This document shows, piece after piece, positions 10,535-39,908 of a stretch of 39,908 nt of DNA. The DNA comes from a virus (taxonomy: Duplodnaviria; Heunggongvirae; Uroviricota; Caudoviricetes): positions 1-39,908 of the IMG/VR virus record IMGVR_UViG_2703718871_000021; one strand, 5' to 3'. Below the pieces are notes generated by a model. It was not told the DNA's origin. It did not search any database and worked only from the letters and a program-made list of their open reading frames with translations. Positions within the stretch are counted from its first letter, which is position 1. Every line of letters begins with the position of its first letter. A program made the translations under genes and the position numbers.

Positions 10535-11437
10535 TTAACCCTCCAGTGCTTTTTCAGCCAGGGTGATTACTTCAGCGAGATTTTCATCCGTTACTTCACC
10601 AAGTTTCCTGGCTCCCTGTTTTTCCAGAATTGCAATAGCTTCTGCCCGGTAACCCCCTTTTGCTAACTGGAGGATCAACCCTTCAGCTTGTTTGCGTAGT
10701 GCCGCGAAATCAATTGTATGGTCATCTTTGGCGTCATTATTCTGGCTGGAATTTGCTGCGTCTCTGCGTGCAAATTCTTCCTGCAGCTGAAGGTACTCAA
10801 CACGATTGATCTCGATATGGCCTTTTTTCAGCATCTCGTTCAACTTGCGTAAGGTGTGGAGTTCACTGGCTGCTGTGCCGGATACATTTTTGACGTAAAA
10901 CGGCCCCGTGCGTTCTCCATCTTTGTTACTGGCCTTTTTCGGCTTAACTTCATCACGCCCATCCGCAGGTGCATCAAGTAGCTGCTCGGCAAAAGCACGT
11001 CGCTCGCCGATGGTTGGCAGGTCGTCCCAGAACTTAAGGATGTTACGGGACAGGTCCAGGAGAGCAGGTTTAAGCAGCGCCCTGGTTCGTTTGACGCCCT
11101 GCAATGCGCTGTCGAGAGCATCAATCTGAACAACTCGTTTATCGCCTTCAGCATCACGGTAGGCAACAGCACGTTGCAGCATGTCTTCTGTGATAGGGGT
11201 GGCTACCGGGTAGAAACCAGCCAGTGCGATAACGTCGCTGAACTCCAGATCATCCAGTGTCATTGCCGCTGACATATTTTCAGTTTCAGTTGCTGTATCC
11301 CGACATTCCTGCACTCGTGAAATCGTGTCAGGATGCATAACAATGCCTGATGCCATTGTGCGGATAAGACGTTCAAGCAGCGCATTATGTTGTGCCAGAA
11401 GTTGATTATTAAGTTCGAGACTGGTTTCTAAACTCAT
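10535..11437 (-). CDS. hypothetical phage early protein
   Basis: 300-aa ORF, stop adjacent to next gene start; acidic, helical-looking; no recognisable motif. Confidence 0.65.
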
Positions 11438-11583
11438 ACTGTGGTCCTCGCTACAAGGAGAATGAAAGTGATGATCAGACCGAGCGCAGTGGCAACGGCC
11501 AGACCGGTCATCAAATCAAAGTTTTTACGGCGATAACGGAGAACATCGCGCCCCGTCAGTCGATAGAGGTGTTCAGGTTTCAT
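11434..11583 (-). CDS. hypothetical small membrane protein (49 aa)
   Basis: Hand-found [52 protein letters not shown] with AGGA RBS; stop TGA overlaps the ATG of the 300-aa gene (ATGA); one predicted TM helix. Confidence 0.4.
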   Translation of the reverse strand: MKPEHLYRLTGRDVLRYRRKNFDLMTGLAVATALGLIITFILLVARTTV

Positions 11584-11641
11584 CGGTTGTATTCCTTTTT
11601 TCATATCGGGGAGCGCGCTGTTGCGAGTGCGCTTTCAGACA

Positions 11642-11668
11642 TAAAAAAGCCCGTCACTTGCGGCGGGC
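11642..11668 (-). terminator. putative rho-independent terminator in the early-left leader
   Basis: Minus strand reads GCCCGCC-gcaagt-GACGGGC followed by TTTTTTAT. Confidence 0.5.
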
Positions 11669-12059
11669 AAAGACTACACACAGCAATTACATGGATGATT
11701 CAGTTGGTATTGTGCGTACGTGGTACCACGAGGTTGAAGCGGACACGCCAGTGCGTTGCAATGGTATGCAGGAAAGCACCACATCCAGGGCAGTGCTCAT
11801 AACATTCGTTGATTTGGTATCGTTTTGGCTTTGGTGTCTGAAGCTGTGTTTGGCAAGCAGGGCATTCACCTTTTGAGCGGTTTATACGTTTTCACGCCGT
11901 TTCCTCATTCAGTTCACTTTGGTGGTTCGGCGGCTTCGACTTGTATCAGTAGACAGTGCTTCGCCGCACCCCAAAGGGAACTTACTGACCCGTATTGCCG
12001 ACATCCTGTCCCGCCACGGTCCCGACGCATGGTTTAGAGTCGCGCCGTTCGACTTGTGG

Positions 12060-12180
12060 CTAAGGATACAATTTAGGTTGTATTGTGTAAACCACAAATG
12101 TGGTATTTTGTGGGGTGTGAATACTACTTTATTGATATTCAAGTGAATTTAATTTGTAAGACTTTACAAATGGGGTAAGG
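12060..12180 (-). promoter_or_regulatory. putative leftward early promoter/operator region (PL/OL-like)
   Basis: Non-coding stretch directly below the repressor gene; contains GGTTGTATT also present in the cI-cro intergenic region, TTGTAT half-sites and inverted repeat ACCACAaaTGTGGT. Confidence 0.35.
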
Positions 12181-12217
12181 GAGACTGTTACGCCTCCCGA
12201 TATTTACGGTGGGAATA

Positions 12218-12841
12218 CTAACGTTTACGGCGGTAAATACGGTGTTCGATCATTACACCTATGATCTGTAAGTTCATATCTGCACTACGAAAAATAGGGT
12301 AATCAGGATTTAGGGGGATTAATTCAAAGTCGTCGATGCCGATTCCTAATGGACGGTATTTTTTAAATGTAGCTTCGTGACCGTCGTTTTTGGCGACAAC
12401 AAACTCCCCTGGTGCAGGACATAGCTCAGGATCGATGATAACAATGTCTCCTTCTTTAAACTCTGGTTGCATGCTGTCGCCATCAATACGTAATGCGAAG
12501 CATGTTTCTGGAATGTCAGAGTCTGCCAAAATATATTCAAATTCCCCTGTCAGATCTGTTATGTCTCTTGCTTCTGTAAGCTCTCCTGCCTGAACGTAAC
12601 TTAATATAGGTATGCGTCTGGTACTTATCTCCGCGAGAGGCATAATATTTTTACCGTTCAGTAGCCAGTCTGGGCTACATTTCAAGGCCTTAGCCAGATC
12701 CAGAAGATTGCGTGGCTTTCTAGTTCGTCCACTTTCGATGGATTCTATGGATTGTTGGCTAACCCCTGCAGAATTCGCTACTTCCACTTGAGTCATTCCT
12801 AATTCCAAACGACGTGCTTTAAAACGGGCTGCGAGAGACAT
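12218..12841 (-). CDS. cI-like repressor (XRE-type HTH plus S24 LexA-like peptidase domain)
   Basis: 207 aa from ATG 12841 (RBS AGAAGGA); N-terminal HTH (LGMTQVEVANSAGVSQQSIESIESG); C-terminal S24 signature with Ser in GDSMQPEF and downstream Lys (FKKY); ORF-track start 12892 is probably an upstream non-ATG artefact. Confidence 0.85.
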   Translation of the reverse strand: MSLAARFKARRLELGMTQVEVANSAGVSQQSIESIESGRTRKPRNLLDLAKALKCSPDWLLNGKNIMPLAEISTRRIPILSYVQAGELTEARDITDLTGEFEYILADSDIPETCFALRIDGDSMQPEFKEGDIVIIDPELCPAPGEFVVAKNDGHEATFKKYRPLGIGIDDFELIPLNPDYPIFRSADMNLQIIGVMIEHRIYRRKR

Positions 12842-12961
12842 GGGATTAGTCCTTCTGGGTTGTATTAATGTGTATACCCACATTAAAAACAATTTTTGTT
12901 GTATTTGACAAACCTTGTTTGTTGTTGCTAAATACCACTAAAATTGTATGAGGTGAAAGCA
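12842..12961. promoter_or_regulatory. divergent promoter/operator region between repressor and cro-like gene
   Basis: 120-bp intergenic; rightward promoter candidate TTGACA (12905-12910) with TG-n-TAAATA extended -10 (~12926-12934); repeated TTGTAT-containing motifs and inverted repeat ATGTG...CACAT. Confidence 0.45.
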
Positions 12962-13174
12962 ATGACCTTAGCGACCCGAGTAAAAGAACGACGTAAAGAA
13001 CTCAAAATGACGCAAGTTACGTTGGCTGAGCTCACAGGAGTGAGCCAGCAGGCAATAAACAGAATTGAAAGTGGTGTTATTGCTCGGCCACGTTATCTTC
13101 TTGAAATGTCTATAGCATTGGATTGCGACCCTAATTGGCTGTTGTATGGCTCACAAAACGATAAAAAGGCTTAA
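12962..13174 (+). CDS. Cro-like HTH regulator
   Basis: 70 aa from ATG 12962 (RBS GAGGTG); XRE-type HTH (VTLAELTGVSQQAINRIESG); divergent from repressor. Confidence 0.8.
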   Translation: MTLATRVKERRKELKMTQVTLAELTGVSQQAINRIESGVIARPRYLLEMSIALDCDPNWLLYGSQNDKKA

Positions 13175-39309: not shown

Positions 39310-39908
39310 TGGCATTCAGAATGAGTGAACAATCACGAACCATCAAAATTTATAATCTGCTGGCCGGAACTAATGAATTTATTGGTGAAGGTGACGCATA
39401 TATTCCACCTCATACAGGTCTACCTGCAAACAGTACCGATATTGTACCGCCAGATATTCCGGCTGGCTTCGTGGCTATTTTCAACAGTGATGAGGCGTCC
39501 TGGCATCTCGTTGAAGATCATCGTGGTAAAACGGTTTATGACGTGGCTTCCGGCGACGCGTTATTTATTTCTGAACTCGGTCCGTTACCGGAAAATGTTA
39601 CCTGGTTGTCGCCGGAAGGGGAATATCAGAAGTGGAACGGCATAGCCTGGGTGAAGGATACGGAAGCAGAAAAACTGTTCCGGATACGGGAGGCGGAAGA
39701 AACAAAAAACAACCTGATGCAGGTAGCCAGTGAGCATATTGCGCCGCTTCAGGATGCTGCAGATCTGGAAATTGCAACGGAGGAAGAAATCTCGTTGCTG
39801 GAAGCATGGAAAAAGTATCGGGTATTGCTGAACCGTGTTGATACATCAAGTGCACCGGATATTGAGTGGCCTGCTTCCCCAGTGGAATCAAGGAGTAAAC
39901 AAGCATAA
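39309..39908 (+). CDS. tail fiber assembly protein (Tfa/gpU-like)
   Basis: 199-aa ORF starting [58 protein letters not shown], typical Tfa N-terminus; stop is the last triplet of the window. Confidence 0.7.

What the first reader, a model, noticed from the sequence alone, without database searches (positions are those of the whole stretch)
11642..11900. Early-left leader: small ORF, terminator, and a zinc-ribbon-like frame without a start codon
Below the putative leftward promoter there is a 60-codon GTG-initiated ORF (11687-11869, minus) followed by a strong terminator (11642-11668, minus) before the replication genes. This resembles the lambda PL-N-tL1 arrangement and implies antitermination control, though the ORF is not Arg-rich like N. 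A different minus-strand frame over the same DNA encodes ...ECPACQTQLQTPKPKRYQINECYEHCPGCGAF... (two CxxC pairs about 21 residues apart) but has an in-frame stop just upstream and no ATG/GTG/TTG start, so it may be a pseudogene, a frameshifted gene, or chance.
Basis: partly seen in the sequence, partly recalled or inferred. Interest (0 to 1): 0.35.

Follow-up and report, generated by a model that had tools for sequence, protein, structure and literature searches.

The report
Prophage early leader with RprA-like terminator
This is the leader of a prophage's leftward early operon: an HK022-type antiterminator RNA, a small zinc-ribbon gene broken here by one extra A, and a terminator that copies the processed 3' part of the host small RNA RprA, a copy also found in many other phages.

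Summary
All three described features are present at the stated coordinates. The zinc-ribbon frame is a real 64-codon gene (GTG 11895, stop 11700). It is intact in all 30 relatives examined, has distant homologues, and gives dN/dS about 0.25. In this window one extra A in the run 11871-11874 breaks it. The 60-codon GTG ORF is an out-of-frame by-product.

Antitermination control is supported, but not the lambda N kind. A homologue of the HK022 putL antiterminator RNA lies at 11987-12054, directly after a PL-like promoter, and its structure is backed by covariation. Of 50 relatives, 49 carry either put or an rrn-type boxA upstream, and never both.

The unexpected result concerns the terminator. 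The 20 bases before it plus the hairpin and U tract (11643-11688) are a near copy of the last 47 nt of RprA. That stretch is RprA's RNase E-processed form and contains the site that pairs with csgD mRNA. The 24-nt core is 96-100% conserved in relatives whose neighbouring genes are only 62-71% identical. It recurs in at least 120 viral contigs with 48 hairpin variants, including lytic Erwinia phages. I infer, but have not shown, that the terminator also yields an Hfq-type RprA mimic. My literature searches found no report of this.

The parts
12218..12892 (-). CI/LexA-like repressor gene (HTH + peptidase S24). PGAP calls a 207-aa version in relatives.
   Evidence: Pfam HTH_3 and Peptidase_S24; annotated 'LexA family protein' in relatives.
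12179..12198 (-). Hairpin GGGAGGC-N6-GTCTCCC just after the repressor stop codon. It may be the end of the repressor transcript, but it has a weak T tract.
   Evidence: Fold -13.4 kcal/mol, z = -3.3. Function not tested.
12091..12104 (.). Perfect palindrome ACCACAAATGTGGT overlapping the -35 hexamer; candidate leftward operator.
   Evidence: It is unique in the window and is not repeated at the rightward promoter, so the operator assignment is an inference.
12063..12091 (-). PL-like sigma-70 promoter TTTACA-17-TATCCT. The start site is inferred at about 12055-12056.
   Evidence: Consensus scan. It is colinear with the annotated HK022 PL -35 and -10 hexamers.
11987..12054 (-). putL-like antiterminator RNA with two stem-loops. 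It includes the putL-specific -10-like AACCAT at 12029-12034.
   Evidence: blastn 79% to HK022 putL. Core pattern is unique in the window, 0 expected by chance. Structure 98.2% paired, with 4 of 6 pairs of the outer stem II helix compensatory. Family features taken from PMC9378689.
11901..11906 (-). Shine-Dalgarno GAGGAA, 5 nt before the GTG start of the zinc-ribbon gene.
   Evidence: Sequence; conserved across three immunity types and in Enterobacter.
11700..11895 (-). Zinc-ribbon gene, 64 codons when intact, with two CPxC knuckles. Here it is frameshifted: 9 codons, then TGA at 11866-11868.
   Evidence: Intact in 30 relatives representing 11 DNA variants. Homologues P0001-P0005. dN/dS 0.24-0.38.
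11871..11874 (-). AAAA run carrying the extra A; relatives have AAA.
   Evidence: Alignments A1 and A3. None of 51 complete E. coli genomes matches the window version exactly. None of 30 fetched relatives has it.
11687..11869 (-). The 60-codon GTG ORF of the finding: a non-coding alternative frame.
   Evidence: No SD sequence. dN/dS 1.48 against Enterobacter, compared with 0.24 for the zinc-ribbon frame. It is not the frame matched by the homologues found by profile search.
11669..11688 (-). RprA-like single-stranded segment AAUUGCUGUGUGUAGUCUUU, equivalent to RprA nt 60-79 (the anti-csgD site).
   Evidence: Rfam RprA hit of 48.9 bits. Matches annotated rprA in 5421 of 5426 E. coli genomes. 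23-24 of 24 bases identical in divergent relatives. Forms a 15-bp duplex with the csgD 5'UTR.
11643..11668 (-). Intrinsic terminator: a 7-bp stem with one C.A mismatch, a 6-nt loop and six U. It has the same architecture as the RprA terminator.
   Evidence: All 48 distinct variants elsewhere fold the same way, with compensatory changes.
11434..11604 (-). First gene after the terminator: a small hydrophobic protein (49 aa from ATG 11583 in PGAP; phrog_11981). The 300-aa gene and the replication genes follow it.

Best explanation
The finding lies in the leader of the leftward early operon of a temperate E. coli prophage.

Order of elements on the minus strand:
1. Repressor gene.
2. PL-like promoter.
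3. HK022 putL-type antiterminator RNA.
4. A small zinc-ribbon gene.
5. An intrinsic terminator.
6. A small membrane-type protein, a 300-aa protein, an exonuclease, an SSB, a DNA polymerase and a helicase.

Proposed mechanism. On induction, RNA polymerase starts at PL and transcribes put. The folded put RNA binds the polymerase and makes it resistant to termination, so it reads through the terminator into the replication genes. Polymerases not modified by put stop at the terminator, which insulates the replication genes.

The zinc-ribbon frame is a genuine accessory gene of unknown function. It is knocked out in this copy by a single A inserted in an A run, which could be a real mutation or a sequencing error. 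The 60-codon ORF is not a gene.

The terminator module is homologous to the last 47 nt of the host sRNA RprA, which is its RNase E-processed form. I think it most likely has two roles: it is the regulated terminator of the operon, and it is the 3' end of a short Hfq-binding RNA that mimics processed RprA, for example on csgD mRNA.

Shown here: the anatomy, the homologies, the covariation, the conservation and the frameshift. Inferred: put activity, termination in vivo, release of the sRNA and any effect on host targets.
For: put element:
- blastn to annotated HK022/O276 putL.
- Colinear alignment from the -35 hexamer through stem II.
- Structure count: 98.2% of cells paired, 19 cells with compensatory changes against 5.3 in shuffles, and slid controls collapse to 25-42% paired.
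- The 5' duplex also covaries and corresponds to the A3-G7/C15-U19 duplex seen by cryo-EM.
- The putL-specific AACCAT is present.

Antitermination in general:
- 50 relatives were sampled through the 300-aa protein. 21 have put and 28 have an exact or 1-mismatch rrn-type boxA GCTCTTTAACAA. The two are mutually exclusive, and one locus has neither.
- 48 of the 50 keep the terminator module.

Zinc-ribbon gene:
- Extra A.
- Conserved SD and GTG.
- Synonymous TGC/TGT changes at retained Cys codons, and dN/dS 0.24-0.38.
- Distant homologues with KPLKG-CPxC-(20)-CPxC-IATHW.

RprA homology:
- Rfam E = 1.2e-4.
- Matches annotated rprA.
- RprA60-105, the last 47 nt, is the processed form. It acts on narP, and nt 60-97 carry the anti-csgD site I.
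- The seed is the best-conserved stretch of the region.
- At least 120 viral contigs carry it, with about 40 upstream contexts and 48 hairpin variants.
- It sits after thymidylate synthase in lytic Erwinia phage Ea9-2 and downstream of the CI-like repressor in phage Flotzy.
Against: - There is no expression or termination data of any kind.
- Single-sequence thermodynamics do not set the put fold (z = 0.29) or the terminator hairpin (z = -1.4) apart from shuffled sequence.
- If put works efficiently, most PL transcripts read through. That would leave few terminated RNAs to serve as an sRNA.
- No internal promoter was found between put and the module.
- The Rfam RprA score is below the gathering threshold (48.9 against 70). 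The 5' stem-loop and the rpoS-pairing part of RprA are absent.
- The IMG/VR set was collected using the exact seed, so seed constancy within that set is by construction. Only the protein-sampled set is unbiased, and most of it consists of close relatives.
- Two relatives lack the seed (L174, L179), and one distant relative has a diverged seed (L284). The module is therefore dispensable or retargetable.
- The module sits exactly at a mosaic junction, so part of its conservation could reflect recombination.
Confidence: 0.8

Rival explanations
1. The module is only a terminator. It was captured from the host rprA locus, or passed between phages by recombination at a conserved junction (a 'linker'). 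It has no trans-acting RNA function.
For: It lies exactly at the boundary between the variable immunity/moron region and the conserved early genes. The mosaic breakpoint is 8 nt before the seed in vB_EcoM-606R2. No promoter of its own was found. Two relatives do without the seed.
Against: A terminator needs only the hairpin and the U tract. Here the hairpin varies freely (48 variants) while the preceding unpaired 20 nt stay 96-100% identical, in relatives whose flanking genes are 62-71% identical. The same 25 nt also occur in unrelated lytic N4-like Erwinia phages behind a different gene. Those nucleotides are the experimentally defined anti-csgD site of RprA.
Confidence: 0.35
2. The AAAA allele is a programmed +1 ribosomal frameshift site. 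tRNA-Lys would slip from AAA to the overlapping AAA at the rare AGG codon followed by UGA, so the zinc-ribbon protein would still be made here.
For: The sequence CUC-AAA-AGG-UGA allows perfect re-pairing in the +1 frame. It places a rare AGG codon and then a stop codon in the A site. This resembles the Ty1 CUU-AGG-C and prfB sites, a comparison made from general knowledge.
Against: None of 51 E. coli genomes and none of 30 fetched relatives carries the extra A. All of them encode the protein in a single frame. The allele is therefore private and not an evolved recoding signal. At most it makes the mutation leaky.
Confidence: 0.07
3. The arrangement is lambda-like PL-N-tL1, with the 60-codon ORF or the zinc-ribbon protein acting as the antiterminator protein.
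For: The small gene sits where N (lambda) or nun (HK022) sit.
Against: The window has no boxA or nut-like site. The protein is not arginine-rich. It is absent from 33 of 50 relatives that still keep the terminator. A put RNA, which needs no phage protein, is present. The 60-codon frame is not conserved as a protein.
Confidence: 0.03
4. The RprA-like sequence is a phage attachment core. This would be like prophages that insert into tRNA or sRNA genes and carry a copy of the 3' end of the target gene.
For: Some IMG/VR hits carry the seed directly after tRNA-like T-arm sequences or inside STnc100 (L016, L040, L072). Those could be insertion junctions.
Against: In integrated prophages on E. coli chromosomes the module is internal, lying between the repressor and the replication genes. 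In this window it is about 10 kb from the integrase gene at 470-1873. It cannot be attP for this phage.
Confidence: 0.02

Closest known systems
HK022 putL / putR antiterminator RNAs (polymerase-utilisation sites)
   Same: About 79% sequence identity to putL. Same position directly after a PL-type promoter. Same two stem-loops, with compensatory changes. Same -10-like AACCAT. No N-type protein. A terminator lies downstream before the early genes.
   Different: The window has only one put, the leftward one. No putR-like copy was found. The host phage is not lambdoid in its gene content: it has a VapE primase, PolA, DUF2800 and DUF2815. The inner helix of stem II is one base pair shorter. Activity has not been tested.
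RprA sRNA (Rfam RF00034), in particular its processed form RprA60-105
   Same: 24 consecutive identical bases (AAUUGCUGUGUGUAGUCUUUGCCC). A terminator hairpin of the same size, with one compensatory A-U to G-C change. A U tail. The similarity begins at the 5' end of the processed form. The anti-csgD site I is retained.
   Different: Below Rfam's gathering score. The 5' stem-loop and the rpoS-pairing region (AACGAAUU) are missing. It has no promoter of its own and lies in the 3' UTR of a phage gene. It is carried on phages rather than at the chromosomal rprA locus.
3'UTR-derived and prophage-encoded Hfq sRNAs (CpxQ, DicF, StxS, AgvB/AsxR)
   Same: A short RNA ending at an intrinsic terminator at the 3' end of an mRNA or a phage leader. 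StxS likewise arises by early termination at a phage terminator that is subject to antitermination (general knowledge; CpxQ is mentioned).
   Different: Those RNAs have seeds of their own, or mimic an mRNA target as the anti-sRNAs do. Here the phage copies the seed and the Hfq module of a core-genome sRNA. No experimental evidence exists for this one.
Lambda PL-nutL-N-tL1
   Same: Promoter, then antitermination signal, then a small gene, then a terminator, then the early genes.
   Different: The signal is a self-sufficient RNA (put) rather than nut plus N. The small gene encodes a zinc-ribbon protein and is dispensable in relatives.

Membership tests
HK022 put antiterminator RNA | Sequence similarity to the putL/putR core (GUCGGG..GGCG..AGGAUG..CAAU) | tested here: met
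   blastn 79% over 85 nt to putL. The core pattern matches once in the window, with 0 expected by chance.
HK022 put antiterminator RNA | Two stem-loop structure supported by covariation | tested here: met
   18 pairs with 98.2% of cells paired. 4 of 6 pairs of the outer stem II helix have changes on both sides. Slid controls give 25-42% paired. The 5' duplex covaries.
HK022 put antiterminator RNA | putL lies immediately downstream of the early leftward promoter and contains a -10-like NANNAT at +23 to +28 | tested here: met
   Colinear with HK022 PL -35/-10. AACCAT at 12029-12034.
HK022 put antiterminator RNA | Cis-acting suppression of terminators without a phage protein, dependent on the beta' zinc-binding domain | not testable with these tools
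   Needs reporter fusions and rpoC mutants. The definition is taken from PMC9378689.
RprA sRNA (RF00034) | Reaches the Rfam gathering score over the full model | tested here: not met
   48.9 bits against a gathering score of 70. Only the 3' half aligns with high posterior probability. Results are similar for the relatives L014 and L005.
RprA sRNA (RF00034) | The 3' 47 nt (processed form RprA60-105): seed, terminator and U tail | tested here: met
   24 of 24 identical bases followed by an isosteric hairpin and a U tract. blastn to annotated rprA in 5421 of 5426 genomes.
RprA sRNA (RF00034) | 5' stem-loop and rpoS-activating region | tested here: not met
   The upstream part is the coding sequence of the zinc-ribbon gene. 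AACGAAUU is absent.
RprA sRNA (RF00034) | Hfq binding and regulation of csgD, dgcM and narP | not testable with these tools
   Only the predicted 15-bp duplex with csgD -98..-84 is available, at -28.9 kcal/mol against -14.7 +/- 2.7 for shuffled seeds.
Intrinsic (Rho-independent) terminator | G+C-rich hairpin directly followed by a U tract, with the stem kept by compensatory changes | tested here: met
   Hairpin 11649-11668 and T6 at 11643-11648. All 48 distinct variants fold the same way.
Lambda N / nut antitermination | boxA/boxB nut site plus an arginine-rich N protein | tested here: not met
   The window has no boxA. The only ORF between PL and the terminator is the zinc-ribbon gene.
Zinc-ribbon proteins / Pfam PF26833 Phage_Mu_gp6 | Two conserved CxxC knuckles; score above a Pfam family threshold | tested here: inconclusive
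   CPxC-(20)-CPxC is conserved in five homologues, while Cys31 is not conserved. The best Pfam hits fall below their cut-offs: zf-IS66 24-26 bits against 27.3. PF26833 is on record only for the distant homologue P0005. The AlphaFold model is poor, with pLDDT 64.
Programmed +1 frameshift | The slippery site and two-frame organisation are conserved among relatives | tested here: not met
   All relatives are in one frame with AAA.

The most novel reading that the evidence does not exclude
Phages of Enterobacterales carry a portable copy of the processed form of the core-genome sRNA RprA: its seed, Hfq-type hairpin and U tail. The copy is placed at the 3' end of early leaders or genes. These phages include this prophage family, Flotzy-like temperate phages and lytic N4-like Erwinia phages. 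The RNA released by termination or processing would act with Hfq as an RprA mimic or competitor on host targets such as csgD and dgcM, that is, on curli, biofilm and the envelope-stress network. In this prophage family the same element serves as the terminator through which put- or boxA-modified polymerase reads. The balance between antitermination and termination would then set how much sRNA is made against how much replication-gene mRNA.
Probability: 0.4. Interest if true: 0.75.

Novelty: new variant of a known kind. Interest (0 to 1): 0.55.

Why it matters
Three ordinary points are settled. The odd frame is a real small gene with a one-base frameshift. The 60-codon ORF is spurious. The operon is controlled by RNA-mediated (put) antitermination, which places put RNAs in a non-lambdoid phage family where they alternate with an rrn-type boxA.

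The point worth following up is the terminator. A phage-borne copy of the most conserved part of a host Hfq-dependent sRNA, kept nearly invariant across mosaic contexts and found in unrelated phages, would be a clear case of a virus mimicking a host regulatory RNA itself rather than one of its targets. It gives a directly testable link between phage early transcription and the Rcs/RprA-CsgD biofilm circuit. It would also explain the Rfam-subthreshold 'RprA' hits seen in prophages.

Tried and rejected
- Rfam at gathering thresholds found only IS009 at 39652-39850 and nothing in the finding. There is no put family hit, so put was recognised by blastn to annotated phages instead.
- The terminator scanner missed the hairpin.
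- Single-sequence folding z-scores for put and for the terminator were not significant. The structural claims therefore rest on comparative evidence.
- MAFFT misaligned putR-type sequences, so RNAalifold recovered only the 5' duplex. The structure test was redone on putL-type sequences with a structure written by hand.
- The zinc-ribbon protein has no PHROG family. tblastn of P0001 found no match in 50,697 phage genomes. Pfam hits were below their cut-offs. The AlphaFold2 model from 3 sequences was low-confidence and helical, so no fold search was run.
- tblastn of the distant homologue P0005 found only hypothetical proteins of Pseudomonas phages, not Mu.
- The palindrome at the -35 hexamer is not repeated at the rightward promoter, so the operators remain undefined.
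- Literature searches found no description of a phage copy. The searches were for 'RprA-like', for RprA with phage-encoded/mimic, and for the seed sequence itself. Only RprA itself turned up. The Papenfort 2015 paper was not available.
- attP was considered and rejected because the module is internal in integrated prophages.

Full report
**Observation**

Reading the minus strand and the mechanical ORF list confirms all three items.
- The 60-codon GTG ORF is at 11687-11869.
- The hairpin GCCCGCC-GCAAGT-GACGGGC followed by T6 is at 11643-11668.
- A second frame reads *KRINRSKGECPAC...CPGCGAF...HNTN* and has no start codon after an in-frame TGA.

The terminator scanner did not list the hairpin. 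The likely cause is the C.A mismatch, which leaves a 5-bp stem and a 10-nt loop. On its own the hairpin folds at -9.4 kcal/mol (z = -1.4). It is moderate rather than strong.

**Context**

The window is a prophage.
- An integrase gene lies at 470-1873.
- A leftward operon runs from 11604 down to about 2067. It encodes a 49/56-aa hydrophobic protein, a 300-aa protein, a DUF2800 exonuclease, a Gp2.5-like SSB, a DNA polymerase and a helicase.
- The LexA/CI-like repressor is at 12218-12892 (-). A Cro-like HTH gene is at 12944-13174 (+), followed by a VapE primase.

The same arrangement is found in E. coli chromosomes. 153 of 5426 complete genomes share part of a 901-nt probe, and nothing is annotated between the repressor and the 49-aa gene.

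**The zinc-ribbon frame is a gene with a one-base insertion**

Aligning the window with two E. coli relatives shows CTCAAAGG where the window has CTCAAAAGG. Without the extra A, the GTG at 11895 opens a 64-codon ORF: MKTYKPLKGECPACQ...HNTN. This GTG is preceded by GAGGAA at a 5-nt spacing.
- None of 51 complete E. coli genomes that carry this segment matches the window's 76-nt version exactly. The ten hits listed are each one base shorter than the query.
- In 30 fetched relatives (11 distinct DNA variants) the ORF is intact. It is 64 aa, or 59 aa in Enterobacter bugandensis. Only the window stops after 9 codons.

The frame is protein-coding.
- The SD and GTG are conserved across different immunity regions and in Enterobacter.
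- The Cys codons are kept through TGC/TGT changes.
- Against the Enterobacter copy, dN/dS is 0.24 in this frame and 1.48 in the frame of the 60-codon ORF.
- A profile search of 1.8 billion representatives finds two more distant homologues of 63 and 66 aa. They share KPLKG-CPxC-(20)-CPxC...IATHW.
- Cys31 is not conserved, so the metal ligands are the two CPxC knuckles.

The function is unknown.
- There is no PHROG family, no isolated-phage homologue, and only sub-threshold zinc-ribbon Pfam hits.
- One distant homologue carries a precomputed PF26833 (Phage_Mu_gp6) label.
- The AlphaFold model is unreliable.
- Only 17 of 50 relatives have the gene, so it is an accessory gene.

The extra A creates CUC-AAA-AGG-UGA. 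Some +1 slippage is conceivable there, but the allele is private, so it is a mutation or a sequencing error rather than a recoding signal.

**Antitermination**

blastn against annotated phages matched window 11983-12067 to HK022 putL, which is annotated 'antiterminator RNA' in phage O276. The alignment is colinear from the -35 hexamer (TTTACA in both) through the -10 (CATCAT in HK022, TATCCT here) to the end of stem II.

A degenerate put core pattern hits the window once, with 0 expected by chance. It hits 112 IMG/VR contigs. On 13 distinct putL-type sequences I tested the published two-stem structure:
- 98.2% of cells are paired, against 88.5% in shuffles.
- 4 of the 6 pairs of the outer stem II helix change on both sides.
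- Slid controls drop to 25-42% paired.

The 5' duplex also covaries: GUCG/CGAC here against GACG/CGUC in HK022. It corresponds to the A3-G7/C15-U19 duplex seen by cryo-EM. The putL-specific -10-like AACCAT is present. There is only one put in the window and no putR equivalent.

Independent comparative support comes from 50 relatives sampled through the 300-aa protein (62-100% identity).
- 21 carry put.
- 28 carry the rrn-type boxA GCTCTTTAACAA, just after their own promoter.
- Put and boxA never occur together, and only one locus has neither.

Each immunity module therefore brings its own processive antitermination signal in front of the same terminator. The mechanism, however, is the RNA-only HK022 type and not lambda N.

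**The terminator is an RprA 3' module**

A permissive Rfam scan gave RprA (RF00034) at 11639-11748, with 48.9 bits (gathering score 70) and E = 1.2e-4. Only the 3' half aligned confidently. blastn of 11636-11760 against E. coli genomes hit the annotated rprA gene in 5421 of 5426 genomes, over window 11643-11688.

Compared with E. coli rprA:
- 24 consecutive bases are identical: AAUUGCUGUGUGUAGUCUUUGCCC.
- The hairpin has the same size, with one A-U to G-C exchange and one C.A mismatch.
- A U tail follows.

The similarity begins where the RNase E-processed form of RprA begins. That form is the last 47 nt, RprA60-105. It coexists with full-length RprA and represses narP on its own. RprA nt 60-97 carry the anti-site for csgD mRNA site I, and nt 45-75 pair with ydaM/dgcM. 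Accordingly the window's segment forms a 15-bp duplex with csgD -98..-84. The energy is -28.9 kcal/mol against -14.7 +/- 2.7 for shuffled seeds. This follows from the sequence identity and is not independent evidence.

**Is the module conserved for more than termination?**

In the protein-sampled set, 48 of 50 loci keep the 24-mer with at most one change. The most divergent relatives give the clearest comparison:

| Segment | Identity to the reference |
|---|---|
| First 300 nt of the 300-aa gene | 62-71% |
| Spacer after the terminator | mostly about 70% |
| Rest of the hairpin | 56-88% |
| 24-mer seed | 23-24 of 24 |

The hits show about 40 different upstream contexts and 48 distinct hairpin variants. 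All of them fold into a hairpin plus U tract, with many compensatory stem changes. Seed constancy in that set is by construction. The hairpin variation is informative.

The contexts include:
- Other members of this prophage family whose upstream regions are unrelated. The mosaic breakpoint in vB_EcoM-606R2 is 8 nt before the seed.
- A different temperate group (Flotzy, LLS, Eeyore), where the module again lies downstream of the CI-like repressor.
- Lytic N4-like Erwinia phages, where the same 25 nt plus a different hairpin directly follow the thymidylate synthase stop codon.

Many variants also carry CCCCUGAAUCAUCCA just 5' of the seed, which recalls RprA's AUCCCCUGAGUG.

There are exceptions. 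L174 has the seed deleted and L179 has another terminator. A distant relative, L284, has the zinc-ribbon gene followed by a module with a diverged seed.

The module is internal in integrated prophages, so it is not attP. My literature searches found no description of such a phage element.

**Interpretation**

Well supported:
- The region is the PL leader of a put-controlled early operon.
- The terminator is real and is the object of antitermination.
- The zinc-ribbon gene is real and is frameshifted here.
- The 60-codon ORF is not a gene.
- The terminator module is homologous to RprA60-105.

Inferred, at roughly 40-50% probability: the module is also the 3' end of an Hfq-binding RNA that mimics processed RprA.

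Main caveats:
- There are no expression data.
- No promoter lies between put and the module.
- Efficient put action would reduce termination.
- The module sits at a recombination junction.

**Verdict**

The finding as written is mostly ordinary phage regulatory anatomy, correctly sensed but attributed to the wrong mechanism. It also contains one feature not described in the literature I could search: a phage copy of the RprA 3' module. That feature is widespread and can be tested directly.

Noticed in passing
L005:3734-3745, and 28 of the loci L131-L183: Relatives that lack put carry an exact rrn-type boxA (GCTCTTTAACAA) just downstream of their own leftward promoter. It is followed by a hairpin, GCCCCGATGATGGGGC. 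Put and boxA are mutually exclusive across 50 loci, so two different antitermination signals are exchanged together with the immunity module.
   Followed up: partly
L009:1499-1546 (Erwinia phage Ea9-2; also Tellus, Frozen, Rexella, Gutmeister): Lytic N4-like Erwinia phages carry AAATTGCTGTGTGTAGTCTTTGCCC plus their own hairpin and T tract directly after the thymidylate synthase stop codon. This is the same RprA-like module in an unrelated phage and gene context.
   Followed up: partly
L283:~2650-2700 (Escherichia phage Flotzy; also LLS, Eeyore; about 41 IMG/VR contigs): The largest other group of seed-bearing contigs has the module preceded by the hairpin GGTGGAGGCACCACC. It lies downstream of a CI-like repressor gene. 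Part of it is annotated as a hypothetical CDS, which is probably a mis-call.
   Followed up: partly
L072:8201-8401; L016, L040, L101: In some viral contigs the seed follows tRNA-like T-arm sequences. In L072 it lies inside an Rfam STnc100 hit (48.9 bits, gathering score 47) near an SraC/SdsR locus. These may be integration junctions, or a link between STnc100 and RprA 3' ends.
   Followed up: no
L284:418-475: A distant relative has the zinc-ribbon gene and the 46-aa gene, but its module has a different single-stranded segment before the hairpin (AATTCCTTGCCAAGCCCTTTG). This could be a retargeted seed variant.
   Followed up: no
L174 and L179 (upstream of the 300-aa gene): Two relatives lack the RprA-like seed. 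L174 keeps only the 3' arm and the T tract, so it has a deletion. L179 has an unrelated terminator (AAAAGGCTTCGGCCTTTT).
   Followed up: no
window 39652-39850 (+): A full-length Rfam IS009 match (219 bits, E = 1e-53) at the right end of the window, among late or tail genes.
   Followed up: no
window 12091-12104 and 12179-12198: A perfect palindrome, ACCACAAATGTGGT, overlaps the PL -35 hexamer and is a candidate operator, although it is not repeated at PR. A stable hairpin (-13.4 kcal/mol, z = -3.3) lies right after the repressor stop codon but has a poor T tract.
   Followed up: partly
L005:5363-5881: One relative has an HNH/NUMOD4 homing-endonuclease-like gene inserted between the 300-aa gene and the DUF2800 exonuclease gene. 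The window lacks it.
   Followed up: no
E. coli genome collection: The 125-nt probe found 5609 places in 5421 genomes, about 190 copies beyond chromosomal rprA. 29 of these places are on plasmids, possibly phage-plasmids.
   Followed up: no
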